DNA from: Candidatus Saccharimonadales bacterium
Lineage (GTDB): Bacteria; Patescibacteriota; Saccharimonadia; Saccharimonadales; UBA4665
Assembly (NCBI GenBank): GCA_035547775.1
Contig: DASZUC010000033.1
Coordinates: 1 to 48,743 of the forward strand
Length of the DNA: 48,743 bases
Direction: 5' to 3'
Every line of letters begins with the position of its first letter. Position 1 is the first letter of the stretch. A program made the translations under genes and the position numbers. The notes beneath the pieces were generated by a model. The model was not told the DNA's origin, searched no databases, and was given only the letters and a program-made list of their open reading frames with translations. This document shows, piece by piece, positions 12,034 through 44,218 of this stretch.

Positions 12034-12085
12034 GCTGATTATCTGTTATACTAGAGGAAATGCTTATGCCTAGAGGTGGGCAAGA

Positions 12086-26127: not shown

Positions 26128-26583
26128 ATGAATCTGCGCACGCTCGACCTGCAGTTGATTGCCCTGGTACGTCGCTGGTATATACCGCTCGCCCGTCTGG
26201 CAATCTTTATTGTGTACTTCTGGTTTGGAATTTTGAAGCTGTTTAACCTCAGTCCAGCCGGTCCACTGGCTGCCGCCCTGACAGCTAAAACCATTGGACT
26301 AGCCCATTACAGCTTGGCCTTTCACATCTTAGCTGTTTACGAATGCGTCATCGGCGTGATGTTCTTGTTTCCGAAGCTGACTCGAGTTGTCATCCCCTTG
26401 CTGCTGATTCACATCGTTATTGTCTGCTCGCCGTTACTACTCGTGCCCCATTTAGCCTGGCAGCACCCCTTTGTGCCAACACTAGAAGGTCAATACATCA
26501 TCAAAAACGTGGCGATTGTGGCACTGGCTATTGGTCTAGCCGCCCACACGATGCCCTTACAGGCCAAAGCGAAACGACGCTAA
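26128..26583 (+). CDS. Integral membrane protein (4 TM, DoxX-like topology; family uncertain)
   Basis: 151 aa with four hydrophobic helices (IFIVYFWFGILKLF, VYECVIGVMFLF, IPLLLIHIVIVCSPLLL, VAIVALAIGLAA). Confidence 0.6.
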   Translation: MNLRTLDLQLIALVRRWYIPLARLAIFIVYFWFGILKLFNLSPAGPLAAALTAKTIGLAHYSLAFHILAVYECVIGVMFLFPKLTRVVIPLLLIHIVIVCSPLLLVPHLAWQHPFVPTLEGQYIIKNVAIVALAIGLAAHTMPLQAKAKRR

Positions 26584-27482
26584 GCGCCGATTTTATCCTT
26601 ACGGCGGCCGCCCTTAGCAACCAGTTCGGCATAATCGATAATCTTGGCAGCGACGTTGTGACTAGTCACTTTTTCAATCTTGAAACCGGGGCTAGAGTTC
26701 ACTTCAAGCACCAACGGCCCACGCTCACTGCGCATCATGTCAACGCCAGCAATTGGCAAACCCATGGCTTTGGCAGCGCGCTGAGCAGTTTTGCGCTCTT
26801 CGTCGGTTAATTTCACGGGAATACCTTCGCCACCTTGGGCAATATTTGATCGAAAGTCATCATCGAGGCTTTGGCGCAACATGCTGGCCACAACCTTACC
26901 ATTCACCACAAAGACACGAATGTCCACGCCGGCACTTTCGGCCACAAATTCTTGGACCACAAAGCTCACGCCTTCCACATAAAAGGCCTGCATCACAGCC
27001 TTAGCCGCTTTACGAGTTTCGGCGAGCACCACACCGTTACCACGGGTACCACGAGCCACTTTGATAATTACTGGGGCGCCACCGACTTGTTCGAGCACGT
27101 CGTCGAGGTCGGCTGCTTCACGAGCAAACACTGTTTTTGGAATGCCGATGCCGGCTTTAGCCAACAGCTGAATGCTGCGCAATTTGTCACGCGAGCGAAC
27201 AATGGCTAATGAGCTGGTTACGGTTGGCACGTTACGCATTTCGAATTGTCGCACAATTGAGGAGCCATAACCCGTCAGCCGGGCCGAAATACGAGGAATA
27301 ATCACGTCAACATCTTTCAGCTCTTCACCGTTGTAGCGAATAACTGGATTGCCGCGTTCGGCCGTAATGTAACATTTGGAGTAGTTGATAATTTGGACGT
27401 TGTGACCGCGCGCCAAAGCCTCCTCCTTGAGACGTTTGGTGGAGTAGTTGCCCGGGCCTTTGGATAAAATTGCAATATTCAT
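26580..27482 (-). CDS. rimK: RimK-family ATP-grasp alpha-L-glutamate ligase
   Basis: MNIAILSKGPGNYSTKRLKEEALARGH aligns residue for residue with the E. coli RimK N-terminus. ATP-grasp motifs follow (VIIKVARGTRGNGV, QEFVAES.G.DIRVFVV, AGVDMMRS..GPLVLEVNSSPG). The alternative GTG start is at 27500. Confidence 0.9.
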   Translation of the reverse strand: MNIAILSKGPGNYSTKRLKEEALARGHNVQIINYSKCYITAERGNPVIRYNGEELKDVDVIIPRISARLTGYGSSIVRQFEMRNVPTVTSSLAIVRSRDKLRSIQLLAKAGIGIPKTVFAREAADLDDVLEQVGGAPVIIKVARGTRGNGVVLAETRKAAKAVMQAFYVEGVSFVVQEFVAESAGVDIRVFVVNGKVVASMLRQSLDDDFRSNIAQGGEGIPVKLTDEERKTAQRAAKAMGLPIAGVDMMRSERGPLVLEVNSSPGFKIEKVTSHNVAAKIIDYAELVAKGGRRKDKIGA

Positions 27483-27492
27483 AGTGCGTACC

Positions 27493-27933
27493 TTACTCAC
27501 TCTTCTGGTTTACGTCAACCAAAAAACCATGGATTCGTAAGAAATTCCGGCCAATCAGCATCGGAAATTTCATAGAACCACGATTCGTTAGGGTAATAGT
27601 AATAGGATAGTTTTTGCCTAAAATACCGATTTCGGTATTGATGGCATAGCGTCGAGCAGTCATTCCGTTTGAGCTGGTAACTCGTCGTCGATGATAGGTG
27701 GCGACTTCAAGGGTGTGGTCTTTACTGCCTAGTGGTGAAAAGCGCAGCCGGCGTTCGCCGTTCTCTAGTTTCACTTCGCGAATTTGCGTGGCATGCAGCG
27801 CGCCAGAATAGGCACCCGTGTCAATTTTGGCCCGTACGCCTTCAATACCAAACAGTGGTAAATCGACGTCTAGCGCCCGACCGACCGTGGTTGGTACTTC
27901 TGCTTTCTTAAATGAAGACCAGGTAAATTTCAC
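27493..27933 (-). CDS. RimK-associated retropepsin-like protein (PF05618-type, annotated 'ATP-dependent zinc protease'; RimB-like)
   Basis: 146 aa with AKIDTGAYSGALHA (D-T-G aspartic-protease-like signature) and PMLIGRNFL near the C-terminus. Immediately upstream of rimK, as is typical for this family. Confidence 0.75.
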   Translation of the reverse strand: MKFTWSSFKKAEVPTTVGRALDVDLPLFGIEGVRAKIDTGAYSGALHATQIREVKLENGERRLRFSPLGSKDHTLEVATYHRRRVTSSNGMTARRYAINTEIGILGKNYPITITLTNRGSMKFPMLIGRNFLRIHGFLVDVNQKSE

Positions 27934-27977
27934 GAGTTATATTGCTCCTTACCGTGGCAATTGTTGAGAACCTCTAA

Positions 27978-28006
27978 ATTATACCATATAAATCATATTT
28001 ATACAA
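27978..28006 (-). promoter_or_regulatory. Sigma70-like promoter for the rimB-like/rimK pair
   Basis: Minus strand: TTGTAT (28006-28001), 17-nt spacer, TGgTATAAT extended -10 (TATAAT at 27983-27978). AAGGAG lies before the ATG at 27933. Confidence 0.5.
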
Positions 28007-28174
28007 TACTCTTACCCCTACGCATTAGCGTGTAGGACACGAGTGTAGACTAAGTAAATTGCCAGCAAAACTAAGAGTAAAACCGTCAATAACAGAGGTA
28101 TAAAACCAGTTTGGTTTATTGGGGTGCGTTTCACTGCTACCCATTATTGCCATAACCAGTATGGAGTGCAAGTC

Positions 28175-29560
28175 TTAGGCGGCCAGAATATGATCAGCGA
28201 TCGTACGATGATCAGATCGACTGAGGTCGAGTTTACCGGCCAATAGCAAATCGAGATCGGCCTGGGTGTGTACATTACGCAAGCATTCCCAAACGCTTTG
28301 CTTGCCATTGAACATCGCCAGATCTTTGGTGTAAATCAAGCCTGACTGTTGGGTGTCGGTACCGCGAAAGAGACGCATTTCTTGCAGCATGGCGTTGCGC
28401 TGTGACTTACCAAGACTATCGTCAACACTCTCAAGAGGACGACCCTTGGCCATCAGTAAGGACTTAAAGCGCCAATGGATTTCGTGAGCAGCTTTTAGAT
28501 CACGTGGCTCATGACCATCAAGACCGTAGACCAAGCCTGCCAATAAGTAATATTCGTCGCTGTGAGCATCTTCGCCCCCACTATAGGCAGTTTCAAAAGC
28601 CATACCCAGTGCCTCTTCAAAGTCCAGGTAGCCATCTTGGCCATAGGCAGCACTCAAATAACCGGCTTTTTCGGCGTTGATCGAACGCAAAGTGTGAACA
28701 CCAAGTTCATGCACGACCACTTGGTATAAGTCTTTGCCTGATTTTTCTTTACGCTTCATGCCAACTTCTATTTGCTTCTTGTGGGCTGAAACCGAAACAA
28801 CAGAGGCGTTTTCGGTTAATACGACTTGCCAGCCGAGCTCGTGACCGCCGAGCTGTTGCAGCACAACATTAAGGGCGTCGCGGACTTCTTCATTGGCATA
28901 AATTTTCTCTGGGTCAATATGTGCCATTAACGGATCGAAACGCTCACGAACTAAGGCACCGACGCGAGCCATGGTTTCGGTATCGGGCTGGACTATTTCG
29001 TAATTTGACTCGCCGATTGGGCCCAAGAGTGCACTCAATTCATCGGCAATTTCTTTGTTGATACCAGTTATTTGGGCTTGTTCAATCAGTGGTAAAAGTT
29101 TGGCGTGCGCAATGGCGTTGAATACGTCCTGCTCGGGCTTGCCATACAAACCTTCCGAGGCCAGCTTAAACCAGTCGCGACTTTCAGCTCGCTCGGTTTC
29201 GGTTTTGCTGGTATCGTTCATCTCTTTAGCGGCTTTGAGCAGAAACAATTCGCTGGCGCGATACTCAATAGCATCAAAGAGCGCACTAACTTTTAGCGAT
29301 TCGTGGCCACTCATGGTGGTTTCGAGAGCTTGCTTCATTGGGTAACCAACCCGATCGAGATTGGTATCGCTTAGCTCTGGATAATTCGGCTGCATATGAG
29401 GAATTGCGCCGGCCAGAAAAGCGGCTTTTTGTGGGGCAATATCTTCACTGCGAAAGTATTCATAACTCTGCAGACCAACAATTTCGGGCTGCGCTTCCAC
29501 AAGCTGTTCGACAGTAGACAGCGTAGCTTGTTCATGCAAATTGGGGGCAAATTCTGCCAT
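28175..29560 (-). CDS. DUF1704-family metallopeptidase (QEGLA-motif protein, MATCAP-like carboxypeptidase fold)
   Basis: 461 aa. VVHELGVHTLRSINA (HExxH) is followed about 30 aa later by FEEALGMAFE, which corresponds to the family's QEGLA glutamate motif. Confidence 0.65.
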   Translation of the reverse strand: MAEFAPNLHEQATLSTVEQLVEAQPEIVGLQSYEYFRSEDIAPQKAAFLAGAIPHMQPNYPELSDTNLDRVGYPMKQALETTMSGHESLKVSALFDAIEYRASELFLLKAAKEMNDTSKTETERAESRDWFKLASEGLYGKPEQDVFNAIAHAKLLPLIEQAQITGINKEIADELSALLGPIGESNYEIVQPDTETMARVGALVRERFDPLMAHIDPEKIYANEEVRDALNVVLQQLGGHELGWQVVLTENASVVSVSAHKKQIEVGMKRKEKSGKDLYQVVVHELGVHTLRSINAEKAGYLSAAYGQDGYLDFEEALGMAFETAYSGGEDAHSDEYYLLAGLVYGLDGHEPRDLKAAHEIHWRFKSLLMAKGRPLESVDDSLGKSQRNAMLQEMRLFRGTDTQQSGLIYTKDLAMFNGKQSVWECLRNVHTQADLDLLLAGKLDLSRSDHRTIADHILAA

Positions 29561-29590: not shown

Positions 29591-30685
29591 TTACCAGAGT
29601 TTTTTGTGTGGTTTGTCGGCTTGAAAATCTTGCAGTAAGGCTTGCTGCTGCTTGGTTAGTTTAGTTGGGGTATCGACAATCAGCGTAATAATGTGAGCAC
29701 CACGTGAGCCGCCTTTCAAATGCGGTACTCCGTGACCCGACAACTTAAAATCGCTGCCGGATTGGGTGCCAGCTGGGACTTTCATCTGTATGGGACCGTC
29801 TACGGTGGCAACTTCGATTTCAGTACCCAACGCCGCCTCAACCATGCCAACGTGCTCTTCACTTAAGATTAAATCACCTTCGCGGGTAAACTGCTTGTGT
29901 GGCTTCACCCGAATTTGGACGTATAAATCACCCTTGGGGCCATTAGCCACCGCTTCCCCATGTTCACGCAAGCGAATGGTCGCCCCATCATCGATACCGG
30001 CCGGGATTTTCAGCTCGATAGTTTGTTTTTTGGTTTGTGTGCCACTGCCATGACAAACGGTGCAGACTTTTTCCGGTACTTTGCCACTACCGCGACATTT
30101 TGGACAGACTGTAGCTTGCTGAATATTGCCAAAAATGGTGCGCGTCACACTGACCACTTGTCCACTACCCTTACATTGATCACAGGTTTGCAGTTCATGA
30201 CCCGGCTCAACGGTGGTACCTTTGCAATGTTCACAGCTGTCGGCTAAGTTGACGTTCAGTTTAGCTTCAGTACCAAATACAGCCTCTTCAAAGCTGATTT
30301 CCACCGCGGTTTCCACGTCACGACCGCGAGCTTGGCGTGGTCGACCACCGCCCGGTGCACCGCCACCAAAAAAGCTACTAAAAATATCGCCAAGACCTAG
30401 ATCACCAAAGTCAAAATTGATGTTCTGCCCGGCACCGCCAAAACCAGCAAACGGATCGCCACCATTGCCACCAACCCCAGCGTGGCCAAATTGATCGTAG
30501 CGTTTGCGTTTATCGGCATCTTTTAGGACTTCGTAAGCCTCGTTGACCTCTTTAAATTTGGTCTCATCACCACCGCGATCCGGGTGGTGTTCGATGGCTG
30601 CTTTGCGGAAAGCTTTTTTGATTTCGTCGGCACTGGCGCTTTTGCCCACACCTAAGACTTCATAATAATCACGCTTGCCGGCCAT
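29591..30685 (-). CDS. dnaJ: Co-chaperone DnaJ (type I)
   Basis: J domain DYYEVLGV...HPDRGGD, a G/F-rich linker, and four CxxCxGxG zinc-finger repeats ([32 protein letters not shown]). Confidence 0.97.
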
Positions 30686-31344
30686 TAATTACCTCGTCGC
30701 ATTTGGTCTTGGGTAATGTCAAAAGCCTGGCGAGCCTCGTCTTCATCCACTCCGTAAATATCCTGCACGTATTTCAGCAAACTCCAATAGTCTGAAAACT
30801 TGCCGAGAGACTGGCGCCGATCATATCGTGACTTGAAGTACACGGTAACTTCGTCGTCCTCAGCTACAATATGGCGAGCAATGTCGCTAAACACCTCTTT
30901 TTCTTCGTCGCTCAGGTTTACTTCTGGTTTGACACGAGTTATTGGGGCCGACTGTAAAAATTCGGTGAGCCGCTCAAGGTACCAATGGCGTTGATCATCG
31001 CTTTTATCAGGCAAATGGTGCCCCTCGGCACTATGTACTTCGCCCAAAATCTGCTGGGGTGGATAAAATGTGTAGTGATCGTAGTCCTCTCCACTCATGC
31101 TCTGAGTAATGAATAGACAGTAAAACTGCTTAGAATCTTTGGTTTGGCGAACTAATAAAAAGTCTTTATTGAGCTGCTCAGACGTCCAACGAGCATCATG
31201 TGCCAGACGTTCGCTGGTGCTACAATCGCTACCCATTTGCTCAATGATCGCGTCGGCATGTTCCTGGATGTTCAACCATTGCTGGCGCTCGATCACCTCA
31301 AATGGCGTCGGTGGCATGGCGGGAGTGTTCTCCGGATTCATCAT
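30685..31344 (-). CDS. Hypothetical acidic protein (orf219) in the chaperone operon
   Basis: 219-aa ORF. Its stop overlaps the dnaJ start as TAATG. No recognisable motif. Confidence 0.65.
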
Positions 31345-31372
31345 ATGTCTATCCTAGCAGGTTTAACGGGGG

Positions 31373-31816
31373 TTAAAAACCGCTGTCCTTTCGCTCTTCG
31401 CTCGCTAAATAATCTAGCAACAGGCCTTGGTGAAGTTCGCAAACGGTAATGCCTTTTTCGTCAGCAGCCATTTTGTCGTAAATCGAGGTCACATCTTCGC
31501 TCGTCTCGTGAATGCCGTCGGCTTGCGAAAAGTCGTAACGACCAGGCTTGCCCATACCACGATGCAATTCTTCGAAGTTTAGGTGATAGACAGTGCGCGG
31601 AGTGACAGTTGCGCCAGCTAAGCGGCTAAGCACAAAGTGCCGGTGATATTCCCAGCCCACTTTCCACTCATAGGCTAATCTTTCCTCGCCATCGATGACC
31701 GCAGGTTGACCATGTTGGAGCAACAAACGATCACTGCGTGCGCTGGCCGTTTCGCCAAAGGTCGATTCGTAATCTAAGGCATCTTGGGCTGGTTGCGGTA
31801 ATTTAGCTTCAGACAT
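31373..31816 (-). CDS. Hypothetical acidic protein (orf147) in the chaperone operon
   Basis: 147-aa ORF, 5 nt after orf71. No recognisable motif. Confidence 0.65.
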   Translation of the reverse strand: MSEAKLPQPAQDALDYESTFGETASARSDRLLLQHGQPAVIDGEERLAYEWKVGWEYHRHFVLSRLAGATVTPRTVYHLNFEELHRGMGKPGRYDFSQADGIHETSEDVTSIYDKMAADEKGITVCELHQGLLLDYLASEERKDSGF

Positions 31817-31821
31817 GTACT

Positions 31822-32037
31822 TTACGCGTCCGTACCTTCCTCAGTCCCACCCTGAACAGCTTGTTGTCGATACTCTTCACGGAGGCGGGCTTGGCGACGA
31901 CTGAAAGCTTCACCAGCAGCCATCAAACCCAACGGATGTGTCAGTGATTCGGCACTAACACCGAGCACTTCTTCTACGGGCGCCACAAAATCAGCTCCCA
32001 AAGCTTCAGCAAATTTCTCTACACGATCCTTATCCAT
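31822..32037 (-). CDS. Hypothetical small acidic protein (orf71) in the chaperone operon
   Basis: 71-aa ORF, 35 nt downstream of dnaK. No recognisable motif. Confidence 0.5.
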   Translation of the reverse strand: MDKDRVEKFAEALGADFVAPVEEVLGVSAESLTHPLGLMAAGEAFSRRQARLREEYRQQAVQGGTEEGTDA

Positions 32038-32072
32038 AGCACCTCCTCAGTTAGAGTAGGTCTATTATAGAC

Positions 32073-34007
32073 CTACTTGTCTACCACTTCGCCCTCAATG
32101 GGCTCGTCTTTGCTCTTCTTGTCTGATTTTTTGCTGGTCTTTTTGTCGCTTTTATCGGTTTCATCAGTTGCTTCGTCAGTATTCTCTTCGGCAGCAGCTT
32201 GTTCATAGAGTTTAGAGCCAATTGGCATGAGTTTGTCGTTCAGCTCTTTGGTAGCAGCTTCGAGTGCGTCTTTGTCGGCGCCCTCGTCGGCCACGACTTT
32301 CTTGGCAGCTTCTACGGCTTCGTCGAGCGTCTTTTTGTCGTCGTCACTGAGCTTATCACCGTTGTCATTCTTCAATTTTTCGGCCTGATACACAGCGCTG
32401 TCGAGCAAATTACGGGCTTCCACTGCTTCGCGCTTGGCCTTGTCTTCCTCGGCGTGAGTTTCAGCTTCTTTGGCCATCTTTTCGACTTCAGTTTTGTCGA
32501 GATTGCCCGAACCAGAAATGGTAATGGACTGCTCTTTGCTGGTGCCCTTATCTTTGGCGGTAACGTTCAAAATACCGTTGGCATCAATGTTAAAGGTAAC
32601 CTCGATCTGGGGGATGCCACGGGGAGCTGGGGCAATACCATCGAGGATGAAACGACCAAGCGACTTATTATCGTTGATCATTTCACGCTCACCCTGGGCC
32701 ACGTGGATTTCGACCTGCGGCTGATTGTCGGCAGCGGTGCTAAAGACTTCTGACTTGCTGGTGGGAATGGTGGTATTGCGCTCAATCAGCTTAGTCATGA
32801 CGCCGCCCATGGTCTCTATACCAAGACTCAAAGGCGTTACGTCCAGCAACAGTACATCCTTGACGTCACCCTGGAGCACGCCGCCTTGAATGGCAGCACC
32901 GACGGCTACAACTTCATCGGGGTTTACACCCTTCATCGGGTCTTTGCCAAAGATTGCCTTCACTTTTTCTTGCACGGCCGGCATACGGGTCATGCCGCCT
33001 ACTAATACGACAGCATCGATGTCAGCAGCTTTGAGGCCTGCATCTTTGAGAGCTTTCTCGCAAGGCGCGGCGGTCTTGTCGACCAGCTCGGCTACTAAGC
33101 TCTCTAACTTGGCGCGGGTCAGTTTGTACTCGAAGTGCTTGGGGCCTTCGGCGTCAGCGGTTAAGAATGGTAGGTTAACGTCGACTTCTTGAGCAGTCGA
33201 TAACTCAATCTTGGCTTTCTCGGCTTCGTCACGCAAGCGTTGCATAGCAGCTTTGTCGTCTGAGACGTCGATGCCAGCGTCTTTTTTGAATTCATCCACA
33301 AAGTGGTTGACCAAAACGCGGTCAAAGTCGGCGCCACCGAGGTGAGTGTCACCATTGGTGCTTTTGACTTCAAATACACCATCGCCTAGTTCAAGGATGG
33401 AAACGTCAAAGGTACCACCACCAAGGTCGTAGACGGCGATTTTTTCGTCTTTTTTGTCGGCTTTGTCGAGGCCGTAAGCTAAAGCTGCTGCGGTTGGCTC
33501 ATTGATGATGCGTTTTACTTCTAGGCCAGCAATTTTACCAGCATCTTTGGTGGCTTGGCGCTGGCTGTCGTCGAAGTAAGCTGGGACCGTAATCACTGCT
33601 TCGGTGACCTTGTCGCCCAGGAAAGCTTCAGCATCGGCCTTCAGCTTGCCAAGAATCATGGCACTGATTTCCTCAGGACTGTATTCTTTGTCGGCCATTT
33701 TAACCTTGACGCCACTGCCAGACTTCACGATTTCGTAACCCATTAATTTGAGGTCACGCTGCACTTCTTTGTCGTTAAAGTTACGGCCAATCAGACGCTT
33801 CACTTCATAAATCGTGTTGTTGGGGTTGGTCACCTGCTGGCGACGTGCCACTTGGCCGACCAAACGCTCGCCGTTTTTGTTAACAGCCACGACTGACGGT
33901 GTGGTGCGCGCACCTTCGCTGTTCGCGATAATTTCCGGCTTGCCAGACTGCATTACAGCCATGGCCGAGTTGGTGGTACCAAGGTCAATTCCGATAATTT
34001 TTGCCAT
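32073..34007 (-). CDS. dnaK: Hsp70 chaperone DnaK
   Basis: [23 protein letters not shown] and [10 protein letters not shown] signatures. K/D/E-rich C-terminal tail. AAGGAG lies before the ATG. Confidence 0.98.
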
Positions 34008-34017
34008 TCTATTCTCC

Positions 34018-34536
34018 TTAATCTATTCTTAATGCTTCGGTTTCACGGGCTGCCCCATAAACAAATCGTAAGTCGCGAACACGACTATCAGTAGGATCGA
34101 TGCTCTCTAACTCCACGCTGCTATCTTGCACAATACTTGTCAAACTAGCTGTATCAAGGTCGACAATATAGTCACGGACTTGGCCGAAACGCCACATCTC
34201 CAAAAAGCCTTGGCGTTCACCAGCACTCAACGACGTCATACCCAACTTCTTCTGATCCTGATGGGCTTCAATAATTTCCTCATTGGTTGGTACGCCCGGT
34301 ATGGTTTCTGGATCAGTATGCAACATAGCTATGACGGTTTCGAGTGGCGACTTCTGTGATCCTGGCAGGCTTTCAAAGCGGTTATCTTGCCAGTTACCAT
34401 AGGCCCGTCGAGCAACGGCCGCAACGGTAAGCACTCCGGCTATCCATAAACTTCTGTACATCAATTGATGTCCGGAAAATTCGTGGGTTATGTGACCCAA
34501 CTTGCCTGTCTGTTGTTTAACAGTACGTTTCGCCAT
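34018..34536 (-). CDS. Hypothetical single-pass membrane protein (orf172) in the chaperone operon
   Basis: I start at [13 protein letters not shown] helix [13 protein letters not shown]. Ends 10 nt before dnaK. Alternative starts are at 34560 (ATG) and 34593 (GTG). Confidence 0.55.
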
Positions 34537-34609
34537 ATGATTTCTTTCACAAATCCTCATAGATTTGTAGTCATCAGTATGACTGATTAGCACTCAGACG
34601 TCAAGACTG

Positions 34610-34909
34610 CTAATTGTTGTCTTTTTTGATACGTTCTCTCTGTTGTTGATGTTCTTTGGCAGCATTCTTGCCTGCCACGGCTAAGGCTTCCACGGCTTCA
34701 TGCTGGGCGTCAAAAGGTTGTTTATCTTGCGCTTTGAAGTAGTAGTAAAACGGGGTGCTGAAGATACCGAAGGTTAGGCCAATAAAGAGCAGCGGCCAGT
34801 AGTGATCGCTGCGGGTATTGGCTGTTTTGTACACCCCCATAGCCACCAGTGCACAGCCTAGTACCATGCCGATCAAACTGGCCCACCCGGCACGGCTACG
34901 CCTCGGCAT
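34610..34909 (-). CDS. Hypothetical 2-TM membrane protein (orf99) in the chaperone operon
   Basis: Helices WASLIGMVLGCALVAMGVY and WPLLFIGLTFGIFSTPFYYYF, followed by a basic C-terminal tail. Confidence 0.6.
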   Translation of the reverse strand: MPRRSRAGWASLIGMVLGCALVAMGVYKTANTRSDHYWPLLFIGLTFGIFSTPFYYYFKAQDKQPFDAQHEAVEALAVAGKNAAKEHQQQRERIKKDNN

Positions 34910-35513
34910 CAGGTTTTCTTTTATTGTAATAATAGTAGTGGCGGGGATTCCAAAATAAGCTGGCGCTTTTCAGGCCTTCCAGCAGCACTTGGCCTGTTGC
35001 TTTTGCCAAACGGCGCATTCGACCAGGCTGCGATTCAACAGCGACCTCTGGATTAGGATAAGGCGGCAGCACCGTACGCCCGTTTATCATATCGCTCAAA
35101 TGATCCACGGCTTTGGTGGTCAGGTTTTGCAATTCGTTGGCATCACCTTTAGCTAGCTGCCGAACGGCTTTCATATCTTCGGCGGATAGGTCGAACCACT
35201 CCTGGTAAAAATTGAGGCGATCTTTAGTTTCGGCGGCAGAAGCCTCGCCAGCCGATTGTTTGCAGAAAGCTTCGAGCATCGCCCCGTAAGCGCCAGTTAA
35301 ATCGTCACGCTCAGTAAATGGAAAGCGTACGTGGGGTGTTTGGTCGTAAGGACCTTCGTGATCATGGCGAATCAAATCGCCCATAAAATCCGTGTCATGC
35401 CGCAAGTGCTCGGGCACCCGACCGAGAGGGGTGGAAGCACCCGGCCACTGGCGCTCGGGGTTATTGAAATCGATCTGACCACCGTTGATAAGCCATTCAT
35501 AGTTGCCGCTCAT
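34896..35513 (-). CDS. Hypothetical protein (orf205) in the chaperone operon
   Basis: I start at MSGNYEWLING (ATG at 35513), 1 nt after the orf82 stop and with GGTGGA upstream. The ORF-track start at 35534 would overlap orf82 by 20 nt. No recognisable motif. Confidence 0.6.
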   Translation of the reverse strand: MSGNYEWLINGGQIDFNNPERQWPGASTPLGRVPEHLRHDTDFMGDLIRHDHEGPYDQTPHVRFPFTERDDLTGAYGAMLEAFCKQSAGEASAAETKDRLNFYQEWFDLSAEDMKAVRQLAKGDANELQNLTTKAVDHLSDMINGRTVLPPYPNPEVAVESQPGRMRRLAKATGQVLLEGLKSASLFWNPRHYYYYNKRKPDAEA

Positions 35514-35514
35514 C

Positions 35515-35763
35515 TTAGTCCACCAATTCGGCAATACGATCCATAAGCTGGGCGTCGTAGGCCGACAAAACCGCCGCTTTGGCTTCGGCCTCTAGTTGGC
35601 TGACGACGGTCGGGTCAAGCAAGCCCAGAATACGACAAAATTCACTGAAACTTTCATGTACATCGCCATCATCCATGGCTACCTGTATAGCTTCGTTACT
35701 ATCGCCAAAGAAGTCTTCGGCCATAGCACGATGTTCGGGTCGGGGGTACTGTTCGCCAATCAT
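35515..35763 (-). CDS. Hypothetical small acidic protein (orf82) in the chaperone operon
   Basis: The start overlaps the grpE stop (ATGA). 82 aa, very D/E-rich. Confidence 0.55.
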   Translation of the reverse strand: MIGEQYPRPEHRAMAEDFFGDSNEAIQVAMDDGDVHESFSEFCRILGLLDPTVVSQLEAEAKAAVLSAYDAQLMDRIAELVD

Positions 35764-36239
35764 TGAGCCCTCACTCGTACCATAGCGTGACGGATCACAT
35801 CCTCACCAATGCGATACCCTGCTTGGAGTTCCTCGCTCACCACTTCCTGACTACCCTCACCATCTTCGACACTCACGGCTTCGTGTAATTGCGGGTCAAA
35901 AGCTTCGCCGACGGTTTTAATACGCTCCACGCCAATATCGGCCAGGGTTTTTTCGAATTGTTTGACGATTCCCTCTACGCCTTTCACGAAATCATTATCA
36001 GTCAGGTTGGCCGGGATGTGCTTGAGAGCGCGCTCGAAATTGTCGATAACTGGCAAGAGGTCGGCGATTACGCTGGCTTTGACTGTGCTACGTAAGCCTG
36101 CAATTTGCTCTTCGTGTCGACGACGCAGATTAGTCGCATCGGCACGCTCGTGCTGCAAGGCCGCAGTCAGTTGTTCAACTTGCTGGGTTAATTCGGCAAC
36201 CGTGGGCTTCTTATTTGTCACGACGAAATACCTGCACAA
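35760..36239 (-). CDS. grpE: Nucleotide exchange factor GrpE
   Basis: Coiled-coil N-terminus (ELTQQVEQLTAALQHERADATNLRRRHEEQ), then LLPVIDNFERAL and a C-terminal beta domain (FDPQLHEAV...GYRIGEDVIRHAMVRV). A GTG at 36221 is an alternative start. Confidence 0.92.
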   Translation of the reverse strand: MCRYFVVTNKKPTVAELTQQVEQLTAALQHERADATNLRRRHEEQIAGLRSTVKASVIADLLPVIDNFERALKHIPANLTDNDFVKGVEGIVKQFEKTLADIGVERIKTVGEAFDPQLHEAVSVEDGEGSQEVVSEELQAGYRIGEDVIRHAMVRVRAQ

Positions 36240-36576
36240 TATTACGGCTGGAAGCCCTGGCCAGAGCGACCGAGCCTACAGCGCTTGCTTTCATAAGTAC
36301 AACTGGTAATCGGAGCCATGTAACTTCAGCATCGCCATCGTAGCGCAAGACACGCTTGGAAGCCGCCAAAGTATCGGCATCAAATCGCTTAATCCAATCT
36401 GTTATCCCCACATCTTGTGCGGGACCAATACTGGTTGGAGCTGAAGCTGTTTCGGTGACTGCAATCACCTCTTCGTCATAGCCCACAACCAAATCGGAGC
36501 CTTCACTTTGGCGTGGCAGGTCATCGAGAATGTCGCTATATGCGATTACACCTAGCTTTTCTGGACCGTCAGCCAT
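36211..36576 (-). CDS. Hypothetical protein (orf121) between hrcA and grpE
   Basis: 121-aa ORF filling the whole hrcA-grpE interval. Overlaps the hrcA stop by 8 nt and the grpE start by 11-29 nt. No recognisable motif. Confidence 0.5.
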   Translation of the reverse strand: MADGPEKLGVIAYSDILDDLPRQSEGSDLVVGYDEEVIAVTETASAPTSIGPAQDVGITDWIKRFDADTLAASKRVLRYDGDAEVTWLRLPVVLMKASAVGSVALARASSRNIVQVFRRDK

Positions 36577-37279
36577 AAAGCACCTCCTCCAACTCCCGGC
36601 CGGCGCGTGAAACCAAATTCATCACGTCACGGTACTGTTGACGGGTTGGCCCTAGCGTACCGATGTAGCTTTGGTCGGAAAATGGGCTGCGGAAACGACT
36701 AATAATCAGGGTGGCGCCGGCACTGCGGCCAATGGGATTTTCTTGGCCGATATAAACACTCAAGGTTTCGTTCAGGGCCGCCTCGCGCAACCATGGTTCA
36801 AGATTATCCAGTAGGCCGGCTATCTGTTGCACCTGCATGGCATTCATAAACTCTGGCTGACCAAACAAATTCGACAGCCCACTCATATACAGCTGGTTGC
36901 CAATAGTAGCCAGACCAAGATTGTGCGTTAATTCGGCCAAGGTCTCAACGGCGTTACGGATCATTCGTTCGGGCGCTCCAGCCTGTTGCACGCGTGAAGC
37001 CAGAGCTTTTTCGGCGCGACCAGCGCTTGGCAATAGCGGAACATCGGTTTGGCTAAGGTTATTGACGTAAAAACGGTAGCCTTTGTCGGTGGGGATGCGG
37101 CCGGCGCTAGTGTGTGGCTGGGTGATGTAGCCCAAGCGCTCTAACTCCGCCATTTCCGCGCGGATGGTTGCTGAAGACACATTAAACACCTTCGCCATCA
37201 GACTACTCCCTACGGGGCTGGCTACTTCGGCATACTGTTCAACAATCGCATTTAAAATTTGCTTTTGTCGTTCACTCAT
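36569..37279 (-). CDS. hrcA: Heat-inducible transcriptional repressor HrcA (compact form)
   Basis: MSERQKQILNAIVEQYAEVASPVGS...SSATIRAEMAELERLGYITQPHTSAGRIPTDKGYRFYV is the HrcA winged-helix signature. GGAG lies 5 nt before the ATG at 37279; the alternative ATG is at 37294. About 236-241 aa versus roughly 340 aa in classical HrcA. Confidence 0.9.
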   Translation of the reverse strand: MSERQKQILNAIVEQYAEVASPVGSSLMAKVFNVSSATIRAEMAELERLGYITQPHTSAGRIPTDKGYRFYVNNLSQTDVPLLPSAGRAEKALASRVQQAGAPERMIRNAVETLAELTHNLGLATIGNQLYMSGLSNLFGQPEFMNAMQVQQIAGLLDNLEPWLREAALNETLSVYIGQENPIGRSAGATLIISRFRSPFSDQSYIGTLGPTRQQYRDVMNLVSRAGRELEEVLYG

Positions 37280-37379
37280 AATCGCTCCGCTCATGAGACA
37301 AACCTACGGTTTTCTCCTCGCGCCGGGCCAAAAGTGTGATTTTGGCACGGGCTGCTCTTTTCCCTTTTTAATAATGCTC

Positions 37380-37408
37380 ATTATACCGTTTTAGCACTCA
37401 AAACTCAA
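37380..37408 (-). promoter_or_regulatory. Sigma70-like promoter of the hrcA operon
   Basis: Minus strand: TTGAGT (37408-37403), 17-nt spacer, perfect TATAAT (37385-37380). The -35 box and spacer lie inside the CIRCE element. Confidence 0.6.
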
Positions 37409-37417
37409 GAGTGCCAG
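37391..37417. promoter_or_regulatory. CIRCE operator (HrcA binding site)
   Basis: TTAGCACTC-aaaactcaa-GAGTGCCAG compared with the consensus TTAGCACTC-N9-GAGTGCTAA. The left arm is perfect and the right arm matches 7/9. Confidence 0.85.
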
Positions 37418-40688: not shown

Positions 40689-41156
40689 CTAGTTGTAATC
40701 TTTTTCGTATTCTGCGCTGATTGTTTGGAGTTTTCCATCAATGTCGTGATAGGTGAATTTGTAAGCTTGCTCGTCTCCTCGATTGCGGTAATCTAAGTCT
40801 TTGAGGTCACTTATGCTCTGTTTTAAAGTAGTGATATGGCTGTCTTTGCCATAAACATGATCTGGATTTTCCTGAACATCTTCTACCAGTTCACTAAGAG
40901 TTACTGGATATCTTCCGTAAATTGTGTAGTAAAGCGCCAAGACAGACTTAAGGACGGTGGCCGCATCTTTATTCTCTTTAAGCTTTGCGTCATGCAAAGC
41001 TCCACTTGGGGCGTCACTTATGGATGAGGACGGGGCCTTACCCTGGTGATGAGATATAACTACTGTGGCAACAATAACAAGTACTGCAACTCCTAGGCCA
41101 AGAAGCCGATGCATATCATACTGGATGGTGCCTGGAGATTTATGCGCTGTTGTCAT
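40689..41156 (-). CDS. Membrane-anchored hypothetical protein
   Basis: 155 aa with an N-terminal TM helix (LLGLGVAVLVIVATVVI). The extracytoplasmic part contains ALYYTIYGRYPVTLSELV, which faintly resembles pseudopilin globular domains, but there is no prepilin motif. Confidence 0.55.
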   Translation of the reverse strand: MTTAHKSPGTIQYDMHRLLGLGVAVLVIVATVVISHHQGKAPSSSISDAPSGALHDAKLKENKDAATVLKSVLALYYTIYGRYPVTLSELVEDVQENPDHVYGKDSHITTLKQSISDLKDLDYRNRGDEQAYKFTYHDIDGKLQTISAEYEKDYN

Positions 41157-41176
41157 AATTTGTTCCTTGCTTATTA

Positions 41177-41683
41177 CTAATCGTTAAGGTGTTGAATAGC
41201 GTAATCTGCCTGCGCTTCTGTGAATTCCTCGCCATATTGAGAGATTAGCTGGTCGTGAATGGCAGCCGGTGATAGGTTTTGATCATCTTGATATTCTTTC
41301 GCTTTAGCGAGAGCGTTGGCATCCCAATCGGCTTTTACATGTTTTATGGCGTACTTTGCTGCTGCTGCGGAAAACTGGCCACCATAATCGGAGACCAGCT
41401 GGTCGTAGACGCCTTGCTTAGACATATTCATCTCGTTGGCATAGCTGTCGGCCTGGTTGAGAGCTGATAAGTATTCTGCCGGAGTTTTAGGTTGGGGAGT
41501 CGGCTCAGTATCACTAGACTGGCTCACCGTTGAAGTGATGCTACTATCAACGGGTGCAACGTTGCTCGAAGTGCCATCATTCTTACCGCTACTTGTTGCG
41601 GCAGCTACGATACCCACGATTACTAGACCAATAATGACCGGTGCGATTCGATAACGTTTAAACCACTCTGGTTGACTTATCAT
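41177..41683 (-). CDS. Ltp-family (host cell surface-exposed lipoprotein-like) repeat protein, TM-anchored
   Basis: Two Ltp-type repeats: ALNQADSYANEMNMSKQGVYDQLVSDYGGQFSAAAAKYAIKHV and ALAKAKEYQDDQNLSPAAIHDQLISQYGEEFTEAQADYAIQHL. An N-terminal TM helix is present, but there is no lipobox Cys. Confidence 0.75.
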   Translation of the reverse strand: MISQPEWFKRYRIAPVIIGLVIVGIVAAATSSGKNDGTSSNVAPVDSSITSTVSQSSDTEPTPQPKTPAEYLSALNQADSYANEMNMSKQGVYDQLVSDYGGQFSAAAAKYAIKHVKADWDANALAKAKEYQDDQNLSPAAIHDQLISQYGEEFTEAQADYAIQHLND

Positions 41684-41775
41684 TGTCTTTCTCCTTCACT
41701 AATGGTTAATACTTAATTCTTATCATTAAAACAGATCTAAATCAACTTTATTATCACTTATAGTTAATAGACTTA

Positions 41776-42063
41776 GTGGGAGTGAATTGGCACTATCGGG
41801 CCATGGCCCGCACCTCCGCCGCACAGAAACTTGGTAAGCGTCTCAAGCAGTTGAGACATGAAGCAAATTTGACGCAAGAAAAGCTGAGCATTGCTACCGG
41901 CATCAGCCAAACCTACATATCTGGTATTGAAACTGGTCATCGTAATCCTTCTATCAAAACACTCGACAAAATTGCGAAAGCGTTAGGCGTGCGCCTATCA
42001 GACGTTACCAATTTTGATGATTATCGTTTCCGCGATCGCTCACGTTTTAGTCGTCATTTATAG
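41776..42063 (+). CDS. XRE-family helix-turn-helix transcriptional regulator
   Basis: LKQLRHEANLTQEKLSIATGISQTYISGIETGHRNPSIKTLDKIAKALGV is a canonical HTH_3 motif. The ORF-track start is a GTG; an ATG at 41803 is the alternative. Confidence 0.85.
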   Translation: MGVNWHYRAMARTSAAQKLGKRLKQLRHEANLTQEKLSIATGISQTYISGIETGHRNPSIKTLDKIAKALGVRLSDVTNFDDYRFRDRSRFSRHL

Positions 42064-42799
42064 ATTCCTCCGTCTCTTCCATTACACTGACATACCGTTT
42101 GGCCGTAATTATTAAGTGGTCCAGCAGGTCGATACCCAGGAGCTGCCCAGCAGCCACCAGTTGCTTAGTAATATCGATGTCACTGGCCGTAGGCTCCAGG
42201 CGACCCGAAGGATGATTGTGCGCCACAAGCACTGCAATGGCGCTGTGCTCTACCGCTGGCTGAAAAACTTCGCGCGGGTGCACAATATTTGCCGTCAGGC
42301 TGCCCACCGAAATTACTTCGTCATAGATAACCTGATAGCGACTATTCAGATACAGACCGCGCAATTGCTCTTTGTGGCTCTGCCCCATATCTTTCAGATA
42401 CTGATAGGCCTGCCGGGCATTGCGAACCTGGGCTAAACGGCCTGGCTGCTTAACTGCAAATCGGCGGCCCAATTCGAAACTGGCGACTAACTGAGCTGCC
42501 TTTGTGACTGAGATATCCAGCGCTTCACTCAGTCGCTGGGCACTGAATTCGTTGCCCAGGGCTTTATCGCCATACTCTTTGACCGTCCGCCGGGCCATCG
42601 CCAAGACATCTTCTTTAGGGCTGCCTGTGCCCCACACAATCGCCACCAACTCAGCCATCGAAAGATATGCCGGCCCTAATTCCAGCAAACGCTCTCTGGG
42701 CTTTTCATAGTCCGGCAATTCCTTGAAGCGAAGCGTGTAATTGTGCTGGCTATGCAACACCGCATCACGATCCCGCAACAGATAGGCTGGTCCTGTCAT
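42047..42799 (-). CDS. radC: RadC-family JAB/MPN-domain protein
   Basis: N-terminal HhH-like segment (PRERLLELGPAYLSMAELVAIVWGTG). C-terminal JAMM motif VAHNHPSGRLEPTASD. Confidence 0.88.
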   Translation of the reverse strand: MTGPAYLLRDRDAVLHSQHNYTLRFKELPDYEKPRERLLELGPAYLSMAELVAIVWGTGSPKEDVLAMARRTVKEYGDKALGNEFSAQRLSEALDISVTKAAQLVASFELGRRFAVKQPGRLAQVRNARQAYQYLKDMGQSHKEQLRGLYLNSRYQVIYDEVISVGSLTANIVHPREVFQPAVEHSAIAVLVAHNHPSGRLEPTASDIDITKQLVAAGQLLGIDLLDHLIITAKRYVSVMEETEESINDD

Positions 42800-44194: not shown

Positions 44195-44218
44195 GTAGCC
44201 AGTGTAACACCGAGTGTC

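What the first reader, a model, noticed from the sequence alone, without database searches (positions are those of the whole stretch)
29591..37417. CIRCE/HrcA-controlled Hsp70 operon expanded by eight interleaved orphan ORFs
Seen in sequence: one sigma70-like promoter (TTGAGT-17-TATAAT), overlapped by a CIRCE inverted repeat, precedes 12 same-strand ORFs. The order is hrcA, orf121, grpE, orf82, orf205, orf99 (2 TM), orf172 (1 TM), dnaK, orf71, orf147, orf219, dnaJ. Most junctions are tight: overlaps of 8, 11-29, 4, 14 and 1 nt (TAATG into dnaJ), and gaps of 1, 10, 35, 5 and 28 nt; the orf99-orf172 gap is 16-73 nt depending on the start chosen. I did not notice an internal terminator or a second CIRCE. 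Established knowledge: in CIRCE-regulated bacteria, hrcA-grpE-dnaK-dnaJ is normally contiguous. Inference: eight proteins (about 1,100 codons in total, mostly acidic, two membrane-anchored, none with a motif I recognise) appear transcriptionally and translationally coupled to the Hsp70 machine. They could be lineage-specific co-chaperones or substrate adaptors, membrane tethers for DnaK, or a stress-induced effector set. This is the best candidate for an undescribed system in the window.
Basis: partly seen in the sequence, partly recalled or inferred. Interest (0 to 1): 0.78.

Follow-up and report, generated by a model that had tools for sequence, protein, structure and literature searches.

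The report
Variable orphan genes inside Saccharibacteria Hsp70 locus
The heat-shock chaperone genes of this Saccharibacteria (TM7) genome really are interleaved with eight unknown genes, but related genomes carry different genes in the same slots, so most are probably passengers on the heat-shock promoters and only one looks tied to DnaK.

Summary
There are twelve same-strand ORFs on the minus strand: hrcA, orf121, grpE, orf82, orf205, orf99, orf172, dnaK, orf71, orf147, orf219 and dnaJ, with the junctions as reported. One point is wrong. A second CIRCE with its own promoter lies at 34587-34613, in the orf99/orf172 gap, so there are two HrcA-controlled units, not one.

The contig is from a Saccharibacteria (TM7) MAG. 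In 80 related species the hrcA|grpE, grpE|dnaK and dnaK|dnaJ junctions vary greatly in size. 43 of 52 complete loci carry interleaved ORFs, and the total inserted DNA ranges from 105 to 5685 bp. The inserted genes are a mixed set (CutA1, NYN, VKOR, GNAT, LysE, Ig-like surface proteins) plus many ORFans that turn over quickly.

All eight window ORFs look coding by codon usage. None matches Pfam, NCBIfam, PADLOC or PHROGs, and none has a homolog in the 80 relatives. orf205, orf219 and orf147 have no homologs in billion-scale protein searches.

orf172 is the exception. Its C-terminal domain belongs to a small family ("orfX") found immediately upstream of dnaK in two other lineages. That family is under purifying selection and is confidently predicted to be helical, with no known fold match.

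Verdict: these are mostly lineage-specific ORFans riding on heat-shock promoters, not a new chaperone system. orfX is a modest lead.

The parts
37391..37417 (-). CIRCE1, the HrcA operator. Its spacer contains the -35 box TTGAGT of promoter P1, and the -10 box TATAAT ends at 37380.
   Evidence: matches the lineage consensus for the hrcA operator
36569..37294 (-). hrcA, a short form of 241 aa
   Evidence: Pfam HrcA and HrcA_DNA-bdg. TIGR00331 scores 178.6 bits, below its 197.2 cut-off. 80 of 80 relatives match over the same length.
36211..36576 (-). orf121, an acidic ORFan in the hrcA|grpE slot
35760..36239 (-). grpE (the true start is probably a few codons downstream of the TTG)
   Evidence: Pfam GrpE, E 8e-41; found in 79 of 80 relatives
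35515..35763 (-). orf82, an acidic ORFan in the tail of the hrcA-grpE unit
34896..35513 (-). orf205 (the ORF is 212 aa from the upstream TTG), an ORFan
   Evidence: Exhaustive phmmer against 1.84 billion representative proteins found only itself. Codon-usage log-likelihood ratio 0.21.
34610..34909 (-). orf99, a small basic membrane ORFan (one clear and one probable transmembrane segment). Its TAG stop codon lies inside CIRCE2.
34587..34613 (-). CIRCE2, the ortholog of the lineage's dnaK operator. The -35 box TTGACG lies in its spacer, and the -10 box CATACT ends at 34576.
Evidence: (D3).
34018..34536 (-). orf172. It has an N-terminal extension of about 60 aa with a hydrophobic segment, followed by a conserved helical 'orfX' domain (residues about 64-164). 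It lies between CIRCE2 and dnaK.
   Evidence: Homologs P0011 and P0012 and loci L081-L083 all lie directly upstream of dnaK. pN is far below pS. AlphaFold2 pLDDT 85. No fold or family match.
32073..34007 (-). dnaK
   Evidence: Pfam HSP70, E 1.5e-265
31822..32037 (-). orf71, an acidic ORFan
31373..31816 (-). orf147, an acidic ORFan
   Evidence: No homolog in the 5.8-billion-protein search
30685..31344 (-). orf219, an acidic ORFan whose stop codon overlaps the dnaJ start (TAATG)
   Evidence: The protein search found only an identical copy. The AlphaFold2 single-sequence model has pLDDT 38 and is unusable.
29591..30685 (-). dnaJ. It has no CIRCE of its own, so it must be transcribed through orf71-orf147-orf219.
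   Evidence: Pfam DnaJ, DnaJ_CXXCXGXG and DnaJ_C. Only two CIRCE copies exist in the window.

Best explanation
This is the HrcA/CIRCE heat-shock locus of a Saccharibacteria (TM7) genome. It is organised as two repressor-controlled units:
- P1/CIRCE1 drives hrcA-orf121-grpE-orf82-orf205-orf99.
- P2/CIRCE2 drives orf172-dnaK-orf71-orf147-orf219-dnaJ.

Across this lineage the three junctions between the chaperone genes tolerate accessory genes, which are gained, lost and replaced quickly. Seven of the eight interleaved ORFs are real, species-specific protein-coding ORFans. They sit in these slots and are expressed as passengers from the native heat-shock promoters. This is the native-gene/ORFan operon insertion pattern described by Price et al. 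2006. They are therefore probably heat- or stress-induced, but they are not parts of the Hsp70 machine.

The eighth, orf172, carries a conserved helical domain ('orfX'). Its repeated placement immediately upstream of dnaK makes it the only candidate for a real DnaK-linked role. I put that sub-claim at about 0.3.

Shown: the anatomy, the second operator, coding potential, lack of conservation, variability across the lineage, and conservation of orfX. Inferred: co-transcription, heat induction and passenger status.
For: - Taxon and relatives: 80 Saccharibacteria loci with 66-88% HrcA identity.
- No tblastn hit for any of the eight ORFs in those loci, whereas hrcA was found in 80, grpE in 79, dnaK in 72 and dnaJ in 58.
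- Junction sizes in relatives: hrcA|grpE median 28 nt (17 of 78 above 200); grpE|dnaK median 366 nt (up to 5.6 kb); dnaK|dnaJ median 700 nt (up to 5.1 kb).
- 43 of 52 complete loci carry at least one same-strand inserted ORF, with a median of 2.5 and a maximum of 8.
- Slot contents in relatives are a mixed set: Big_7/CARDB, CutA1, NYN, VKOR, GNAT, BNR and LysE, plus ORFans with no Pfam hit.
- Turnover is fast. Only 9% of slot ORFs are shared at 85-90% HrcA identity and 36% above 90%. L008 has 4 slot ORFs while L009, at 92.7% HrcA identity, has none.
- DNA similarity to the nearest relatives stops at the borders of the backbone genes, apart from the CIRCE elements.
- All eight ORFs have native-like codon usage in their annotated frame only.
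- There were no hits in Pfam, NCBIfam, PADLOC or PHROGs.
- orf205, orf219 and orf147 are true ORFans in billion-scale searches.
- The second CIRCE and promoter are established.
- Most relatives have a CIRCE of their own 42-208 nt upstream of dnaK.
- Flanking backbone junctions (lepA to hrcA, dnaJ to the Zn-protease gene) are also variable, whereas Zn-protease/RimK is tight.
- Literature: ORFans commonly insert next to native genes and use their promoters, and position in an operon is a poor guide to function (PMC1480536).
- orfX.
Against: - No expression data exist. Co-transcription and heat induction are inferred from position only.
- The nearest available relative is already distant (about 77% DNA identity in conserved genes, with synonymous sites saturated). 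Very fast-evolving positional homologs therefore cannot be strictly excluded.
They were checked only against 83 related loci, four HMM libraries, 90%-identity clusters and viral contigs.
- I could not test whether ORFans are more frequent at the hsp70 junctions than at other same-strand junctions genome-wide, because only about 10 kb of flanking sequence was available per relative.
- Most slot ORFans are acidic, both here (7 of 8) and in relatives (83 of 111). This could point to a shared property that sequence searches miss.
Confidence: 0.68

Rival explanations
1. The eight ORFs are lineage-specific parts of the Hsp70 system (co-chaperones, substrate adaptors, membrane tethers or HrcA modulators), co-regulated because they work with it.
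For: - The ORFs are packed tightly on the same strand inside an HrcA/CIRCE regulon.
- There is a precedent for a lineage-specific, HrcA-repressed small protein that binds HrcA: HagF in Chlamydia (PMC12154930).
- orf172's domain is conserved next to dnaK.
Against: - Seven of the eight are absent from every relative examined, including the sister species at 88% HrcA identity.
- Ten of the 52 complete related loci have under 400 nt between the chaperone genes in total, and 9 have no interleaved ORF of 60 aa or more.
- The same slots elsewhere hold unrelated housekeeping or surface genes.
- No J-domain, GrpE or other chaperone-related profile hit was found.
- Tight packing is the norm across the genome.
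Confidence: 0.06
2. The slot ORFs are extremely fast-evolving positional homologs. Every Saccharibacterium would then keep one or a few small acidic proteins per junction with a conserved role, but the sequences have diverged beyond detection.
For: - Most loci have small same-strand ORFs in the same slots.
- Most of these ORFs are acidic.
- A few weak families link hrcA|grpE ORFs of different species, such as the LEAGR motif at E about 1e-5. Many of these ORFs also carry a G/A/V-rich hydrophobic segment.
- orfX evolves about twice as fast as GrpE at non-synonymous sites.
Against: - Presence or absence differs between close species: L008 has 4 slot ORFs and L009 has none. The number and size of ORFs per slot also vary widely.
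- Recognisable but unrelated domain families occupy the same slots.
- Smith-Waterman alignment with shuffling found no positional similarity above chance between the window and L001, L081 or L083.
- orfX shows that a constrained protein remains detectable at this level of divergence.
Confidence: 0.12
3. The ORFs are not functional genes. They would be chance open frames or decaying remnants in expanded intergenic DNA.
For: - They have no homologs.
- AlphaFold2 gave a poor model for orf219 (pLDDT 38).
- For the short hrcA|grpE gap, shuffled sequence sometimes stays open across its full length.
Against: - Codon-usage log-likelihood is positive only in the annotated frame for all eight (0.11-0.42, against 0.32 +/- 0.11 for known genes), and GC1 > GC3 > GC2 as in the window's known genes for six of the eight (orf121 and orf71 have GC2 slightly above GC3).
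- The ORFs tile the gaps almost completely on one strand.
- The longest frames in the two large gaps equal or exceed the maximum of 1000 shuffles.
- orf172 is under purifying selection.
Confidence: 0.05
4. The inserts are cargo of a mobile element, phage remnant, integron-like cassette array, or a defence or toxin-antitoxin island that landed in the operon.
For: - Content at fixed junctions varies greatly between relatives.
- ORFans in general are often attributed to phage origin (PMC1480536).
Against: - There is no integrase or transposase, and no flanking direct or inverted repeats or attC-like sites.
- There were no PADLOC or PHROGs hits and no relatives in viral contigs for the four ORFs tested.
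- Codon usage and GC content are native-like.
- The ORFs overlap one another, which leaves no room for recombination sites.
Confidence: 0.05

Closest known systems
HrcA/CIRCE-regulated hrcA-grpE-dnaK-dnaJ operon of Gram-positive-type bacteria. From memory, not checked here: the Bacillus subtilis operon carries three extra, functionally unrelated genes after dnaJ.
   Same: It has an HrcA repressor, a CIRCE inverted repeat overlapping a sigma-70-type promoter, and grpE, dnaK and dnaJ in the canonical order on one strand.
   Different: - The genes are not contiguous. Eight extra ORFs lie between them rather than after them.
- There are two CIRCE promoters, one before hrcA and one before the dnaK unit.
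- The -35 box sits inside the CIRCE spacer.
- HrcA is about 100 aa shorter than the TIGR00331 model.
Native-gene/ORFan operon pairs formed by insertion (Price, Arkin and Alm 2006, 'The Life-Cycle of Operons', PMC1480536)
   Same: Taxonomically restricted genes sit next to native genes, on the same strand with close spacing, and are apparently expressed from the native promoter. They are absent from relatives that keep the native genes.
   Different: - The insertions lie between essential partners of one conserved operon, and in some cases upstream of native genes, not just at the 3' end.
- The same three junctions are reused across a whole lineage with very high turnover.
HagF (CT016/CTL0271), the Chlamydiota-specific HrcA-repressed protein that binds HrcA (PMC12154930)
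   Same: It is a lineage-restricted small protein under CIRCE/HrcA control in a bacterium with a reduced genome.
   Different: - HagF is conserved across Chlamydia and has shown binding and a phenotype.
- Seven of the eight ORFs here are not conserved even in the sister species.
- No interaction data exist, and homology to HagF was not tested.
Hsp70 co-chaperones and exchange factors (J-domain proteins, GrpE, BAG-type helical bundles)
   Same: orfX is a small all-helical protein encoded next to dnaK, in two lineages only 1-3 nt from its start codon.
   Different: - It has no J-domain or HPD motif, and no GrpE or BAG profile or fold match. The best PDB Foldseek E-value was 4.0, and a BAG1/Hsc70 entry at rank 8 had E 5.9 and TM-score 0.17, which is not significant.
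- It was found in only three of 83 sampled lineages.

Membership tests
HrcA/CIRCE-controlled hsp70 (dnaK) operon | HrcA repressor with a winged-helix DNA-binding domain and an HrcA C-terminal domain | tested here: met
   Pfam PF03444 and PF01628 score above their cut-offs. The protein is a short form: TIGR00331 scores 178.6 bits, below the 197.2 cut-off.
HrcA/CIRCE-controlled hsp70 (dnaK) operon | CIRCE inverted repeat TTAGCACTC-N9-GAGTGCTAA at a sigma-70-type promoter | tested here: met
   There are two copies, with 2 and 1 mismatches, against 0.04 expected by chance. Each has -35 and -10 hexamers.
HrcA/CIRCE-controlled hsp70 (dnaK) operon | grpE, dnaK and dnaJ downstream on the same strand | tested here: met
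HrcA/CIRCE-controlled hsp70 (dnaK) operon | Contiguous chaperone genes transcribed from a single promoter | tested here: not met
   Eight interleaved ORFs and a second CIRCE promoter are present. Non-contiguity is the norm in this lineage.
HrcA/CIRCE-controlled hsp70 (dnaK) operon | Heat-inducible transcription and HrcA binding to CIRCE | not testable with these tools
   This needs RNA-seq, 5'-end mapping or ChIP.
Hsp70 co-chaperones (J-domain proteins, nucleotide-exchange factors) | A J domain with an HPD motif, or a GrpE/BAG/HspBP1-type domain | tested here: not met
   None of the eight ORFs hit any Pfam or NCBIfam profile. The orfX model has no significant fold match. The other seven could not be modelled usefully.
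Hsp70 co-chaperones (J-domain proteins, nucleotide-exchange factors) | Co-conservation with the Hsp70 genes across related genomes | tested here: not met
   None of the 80 loci has a homolog of any of the eight ORFs. Only orf172's domain recurs, in L081 and in L082/L083, always upstream of dnaK.
Hsp70 co-chaperones (J-domain proteins, nucleotide-exchange factors) | Physical interaction with DnaK, or stimulation of its ATPase or nucleotide exchange | not testable with these tools
   No multimer prediction or biochemistry was available.
ORFans inserted into native operons (Price et al. 2006) | No homologs outside very close relatives | tested here: met
   orf205 was searched exhaustively against 1.84 billion representatives. 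orf219 and orf147 were searched against 5.8 billion proteins. All eight are singletons or near-singletons at 90% clustering and absent from 80 relatives. orf172 is the exception, with two distant homologs. orf121, orf82, orf99 and orf71 were not searched at billion scale.
ORFans inserted into native operons (Price et al. 2006) | Adjacent to native genes on the same strand at operon-like spacing, with native neighbours adjacent or differently filled in relatives | tested here: met
ORFans inserted into native operons (Price et al. 2006) | Protein-coding and under selection | tested here: inconclusive
   All eight have native-like codon usage. Purifying selection could be shown only for orf172, because the others have no diverged homologs for a dN/dS test.
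ORFans inserted into native operons (Price et al. 2006) | Expression from the native promoter | not testable with these tools
   This is inferred from the lack of other promoters or terminators and from grpE, dnaK and dnaJ depending on read-through.
Mobile element, integron cassette or defence island | Recombinase or transposase, flanking repeats or attC sites, or known defence or phage protein families | tested here: not met
HagF-like HrcA antagonists | Sequence or structural homology to HagF, and binding to HrcA | not tested
   No HagF sequence was on hand. Only the regulatory analogy is noted.

The most novel reading that the evidence does not exclude
The hrcA|grpE, grpE|dnaK and dnaK|dnaJ junctions of Saccharibacteria could be a selected, stress-induced 'expression nursery'. 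New or acquired genes, perhaps factors for interacting with the bacterial host of these episymbionts, would be tried out there under HrcA/CIRCE control. Within this, orfX (orf172's domain) would be a previously unknown helical partner or regulator of DnaK, restricted to a few TM7 lineages.
Probability: 0.12. Interest if true: 0.7.

Novelty: new variant of a known kind. Interest (0 to 1): 0.33.

Why it matters
- It corrects a tempting guilt-by-association annotation. Sitting inside the Hsp70 operon does not make these proteins chaperone partners.
- It documents, apparently for the first time, a feature of Saccharibacteria. Full-text searches for Saccharibacteria or Patescibacteria together with CIRCE or HrcA found no relevant paper. 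In this lineage the canonical hrcA-grpE-dnaK-dnaJ cluster is usually split by fast-turnover ORFans, and dnaK typically has a CIRCE promoter of its own.
- If the passengers really are heat-induced, they would be an accessible set of young genes with a defined regulatory input in an ultra-small episymbiont.
- orfX gives one concrete, testable candidate for a lineage-specific DnaK-associated protein.

Tried and rejected
- Pfam, NCBIfam, PADLOC and PHROGs scans of all eight ORFs gave nothing significant.
- An AlphaFold2 single-sequence model of orf219 had pLDDT 38 and was unusable, so I did not run a fold search on it.
- Foldseek searches with the confident orfX model against the PDB and BFVD gave no significant match. 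A profile search against PDB sequences also found nothing.
- An HMM of orfX searched against six-frame translations of the 80 loci found no member.
- phmmer --max of the orphans against all slot ORFs and all window ORFs gave nothing below E 0.008.
- Smith-Waterman alignment with shuffling for positional homology to L001, L081 and L083 gave a best z of 3.5 among 64 comparisons, which is consistent with chance.
- The idea that large insertions are compensated by a private CIRCE for the downstream gene was not supported for grpE|dnaK (p = 0.94) or dnaK|dnaJ (p = 0.32). For hrcA|grpE only 2 loci have such a CIRCE.
- A repeat search for mobile-element or cassette borders found only the two CIRCE/promoter copies.
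- Viral-contig scans for orf121, orf82, orf99 and orf71 found nothing.
- The shuffle statistic 'coverage by open frames' proved uninformative. Only the longest-frame statistic and codon usage were used.
- dN/dS for seven of the ORFs is impossible, because no diverged homologs exist in public data.

Full report
**1. Observation**

The region lies on the minus strand. The ORF listing gives these genes:
- hrcA 36569-37294
- orf121 36211-36576
- grpE 35760-36239
- orf82 35515-35763
- orf205/212 34896-35534
- orf99 34610-34909
- orf172/191 34018-34593
- dnaK 32073-34007
- orf71 31822-32037
- orf147 31373-31816
- orf219 30685-31344
- dnaJ 29591-30685

Pfam confirms HrcA, GrpE, Hsp70 and DnaJ. The cluster look-up shows that public annotation calls the ORFs at the same sizes (121, 82, 99, 71, 147 and 219 aa; 205 aa; 172 aa). 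CIRCE1 (37391-37417) overlaps the promoter TTGAGT-17-TATAAT.

One statement is wrong. A second CIRCE with only one mismatch lies at 34587-34613, against 0.04 matches expected by chance per window. It has TTGACG-17-CATACT. The repeat finder reports it as a 37-nt direct repeat of the first promoter/operator (D3). It fills the orf99/orf172 gap, and the TAG stop codon of orf99 is part of its left arm. The GTG start of 'orf191' would therefore lie inside the promoter, so the real gene is orf172, starting at the ATG at 34536.

The locus is thus two HrcA-controlled units:
- P1 drives hrcA-orf121-grpE-orf82-orf205-orf99.
- P2 drives orf172-dnaK-orf71-orf147-orf219-dnaJ.

**2. Source organism and relatives**

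The window is a complete 48,743-bp NCBI contig. A genome-collection scan with HrcA returned 80 species-level loci, most titled Saccharibacteria or Saccharimonadales (TM7) MAGs; a few titles name no taxon or another one. HrcA identity was 66-88%. The rest of the window fits that assignment: RecA, type IV pilus genes, ComEC, RuvB, LepA, RimK and a VirD4-like ATPase.

**3. Are the eight ORFs real genes, and are they orphans?**

Coding potential:
- Codon-usage log-likelihood is positive only in the annotated frame for all eight (0.11-0.42, against 0.32 +/- 0.11 for the window's known genes).
- GC1 > GC3 > GC2 as in the known genes for six of the eight; in orf121 and orf71 GC2 is slightly above GC3.
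- The longest open frames in the two large gaps equal or exceed the maximum of 1000 shuffles.

Family and homolog searches:
- None of the eight matches Pfam, NCBIfam, PADLOC or PHROGs. By contrast, 17 of 20 flanking ORFs tested have Pfam domains.
- orf219 and orf147 have no homologs among 5.8 billion clustered proteins.
- orf205 has none in an exhaustive phmmer scan of 1.84 billion representatives.
- The four small ORFs have no relatives in viral contigs.
- tblastn of all eight against the 80 related loci gave zero hits, while hrcA, grpE, dnaK and dnaJ hit 80, 79, 72 and 58 loci.
- More permissive searches (phmmer --max, Smith-Waterman with shuffles) found nothing above chance.

**4. What the relatives show**

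The chaperone genes are usually not contiguous in this lineage.

| Junction | Median spacing | Spread |
|---|---|---|
| hrcA/grpE | 28 nt | 17 of 78 loci above 200 nt |
| grpE/dnaK | 366 nt | 39 of 60 above 200 nt; maximum 5.6 kb |
| dnaK/dnaJ | 700 nt | 41 of 52 above 200 nt; 14 above 1 kb; maximum 5.1 kb |

- Among 52 complete loci, the total DNA between the chaperone genes ranges from 105 to 5685 nt, with a median of 1.2 kb.
- The window, at 3468 nt, is exceeded or equalled by 7 of them.
- The number of same-strand slot ORFs of 60 aa or more per locus has a median of 2.5 and a maximum of 8, and is zero in only 9 loci.

The contents of the slots are heterogeneous:
- Of 247 slot ORFs (including the window's eight), 172 are singletons at blastp E 1e-4.
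- The few families are Big_7/CARDB surface proteins, CutA1, NYN, VKOR, GNAT, BNR/sortilin-like and LysE, plus families with no Pfam hit.

Turnover is steep:
- A slot ORF has a homolog in the partner species' slots in 1-2.5% of cases below 85% HrcA identity, 9% at 85-90%, and 36% above 90%.
- L008 has four slot ORFs while L009, at 92.7% HrcA identity, is compact.
- DNA similarity between the window and its nearest relatives ends at the borders of the backbone genes. Only the CIRCE elements align within the gaps.
- Neighbouring backbone junctions (lepA to hrcA, dnaJ to the Zn-protease gene) are equally variable, whereas Zn-protease/RimK is tight. The MATCAP-like gene after dnaJ is itself poorly conserved.
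- Tight same-strand packing is the norm across the genome.

**5. Regulation in the lineage**

- Almost all relatives have a CIRCE before hrcA.
- About 50 have a second one 42-208 nt before the dnaK ATG, most often about 90 nt.
- A minority have a third about 35-42 nt before dnaJ.
- In both operator types the -35 box TTGAC(A) lies inside the CIRCE spacer.
- The window's CIRCE2 matches the dnaK-type consensus but lies 606 nt before dnaK, because orf172 sits between them.
- In the sister species L001 a different 70-aa ORF sits in the equivalent place.
- The window has no CIRCE before grpE or dnaJ. HrcA-controlled expression of grpE, dnaK and dnaJ therefore requires transcription through orf121, orf172 and orf71-orf147-orf219. 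This makes those ORFs obligate co-transcripts, but that is an inference.

**6. The exception, orf172**

- The protein search found two homologs (44-46% identity over residues about 64-164), and a metagenome scan found another contig.
- In L081 the order is CIRCE-hrcA-grpE-orf146-orf79-orf142-orfX-dnaK.
- In L083 (the same organism as L082) the order is CIRCE-hrcA-grpE-orfX-dnaK-orf210-dnaJ.
- In both, orfX ends 1-3 nt before the dnaK start codon, and there is no second CIRCE.
- The family shares the motif MLHTDPE..VP..EIIE...[18 protein letters not shown].
- The homologs lack orf172's N-terminal 60 residues, which include its hydrophobic segment.
- Non-synonymous differences (pN 0.24-0.40) are far below the saturated synonymous differences (pS 0.77-0.89) and about twice those of GrpE. 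This indicates purifying selection.
- With a three-sequence alignment AlphaFold2 gives a confident all-helical model (pLDDT 85, pTM 0.60) ending in a long helix.
- Foldseek finds nothing significant in the PDB or BFVD, and profile searches find no Pfam or PDB relative.
- The family is absent from all 80 GTDB loci.
- Its carriers are scattered on an HrcA tree. The window is sister to L001, which lacks orfX, and the clade containing all carriers covers 77 of 83 tips.
- orfX is therefore either ancient and often lost, or moved between lineages. Either way it has kept its position next to dnaK in two independent lineages, in a slot with high turnover. That is modest evidence for a link to DnaK.

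**7. Interpretation**

The best-supported reading is that the Saccharibacterial hsp70 locus is a permissive site for accessory genes. Seven of the eight ORFs are species-specific ORFans expressed as passengers from the heat-shock promoters.

This matches the pattern Price et al. described for new operons. ORFans are inserted next to native genes and transcribed from native promoters. The authors warn explicitly against inferring function from such positions (PMC1480536).

It remains open for orfX. HagF in Chlamydia shows that a lineage-specific HrcA-regulon protein can act on the system (PMC12154930).

I cannot fully exclude ultra-fast divergence of positional homologs. The nearest relative is already distant, and weak families exist among the hrcA|grpE ORFs.

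**8. Novelty and score**

The components (the HrcA/CIRCE regulon, ORFan insertion into operons) are known. What appears undescribed is the lineage-wide, high-turnover interleaving of the hsp70 genes in TM7, the private CIRCE promoter for dnaK, and the orfX family. Full-text searches for Saccharibacteria or Patescibacteria together with CIRCE or HrcA found no relevant paper.

This is a new variant of a known kind, of modest interest. It is an informative correction rather than a new system.

Noticed in passing
window 36569-37294 (-), and all of L001-L080: HrcA in this lineage is a short form of about 235-241 aa, against 338 positions in TIGR00331. It matches the model in two stretches and scores below NCBIfam's cut-off (178.6 against 197.2 bits). 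Roughly 100 central residues of canonical HrcA seem to be missing.
   Followed up: partly
window 37380-37417 and 34576-34613; L001-L080: In the lineage consensus the -35 box TTGAC(A) lies inside the 9-nt CIRCE spacer, for both the hrcA and the dnaK operators. HrcA binding would therefore cover the -35 element directly.
   Followed up: partly
L005, L017, L020, L025, L028 (upstream of dnaK); L027, L030, L081 (upstream of hrcA): Some relatives carry tandem CIRCE pairs spaced 37-48 nt apart. L008 has an extra CIRCE just upstream of grpE, after a 1.1-kb insertion.
   Followed up: no
window 26580-29560 (-): A MATCAP-like gene (PF08014, 461 aa) follows dnaJ after only 30 nt with no terminator. After it come a retropepsin-like gene annotated 'ATP-dependent zinc protease' (PF05618) and RimK. 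This could be a module that adds and trims protein C-terminal tails. The PF05618/RimK pair is conserved in about 40 relatives. The MATCAP-like gene was found in only 1 of 80 loci, plus L083.
   Followed up: partly
window about 34360-34422 (orf172 residues about 30-50) and L010:10774-11097: The hydrophobic N-terminal segment of orf172 ([20 protein letters not shown]) resembles the C-terminal tail of an unrelated hrcA|grpE slot ORF in L010 (IATAALGAAIVARRLYRDWQS). No other example of this motif was found. It may be a shared membrane-anchor module or chance.
   Followed up: partly
L012:10695-11242, L029:885-1509, L072:10662-10946: Some hrcA|grpE slot ORFs form weak families, such as a shared 'LEAGR(T/N)' motif at E about 1e-5, including a tandem pair in L012. 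Many of these small proteins carry a G/A/V-rich hydrophobic segment.
   Followed up: partly
window 40689-42799 (-): An Ltp-type 'host cell surface-exposed lipoprotein' (PF07553, two repeats), a neighbouring ORF with no Pfam hit, and RadC lie between lepA and a conserved 544-aa gene. None of these was conserved in the relatives' flanks except RadC, in 5 loci. This is another variable patch and may be derived from a mobile element.
   Followed up: no
window 5772-14710 (+), 19562-21058 (-), 45939-48551 (-): The window also holds a type IV pilus gene cluster (PilB-like T2SSE, PilC-like T2SSF, PilM and several ORFs with no Pfam hit), ComEC, and a VirD4/TrwB-like coupling ATPase.
   Followed up: no
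window 20001-21000 and 43001-45000: AT skew is strongly positive here (0.23-0.25) compared with the rest of the contig. These stretches coincide with membrane-protein genes on the minus strand (ComEC, an MFS transporter).
   Followed up: no
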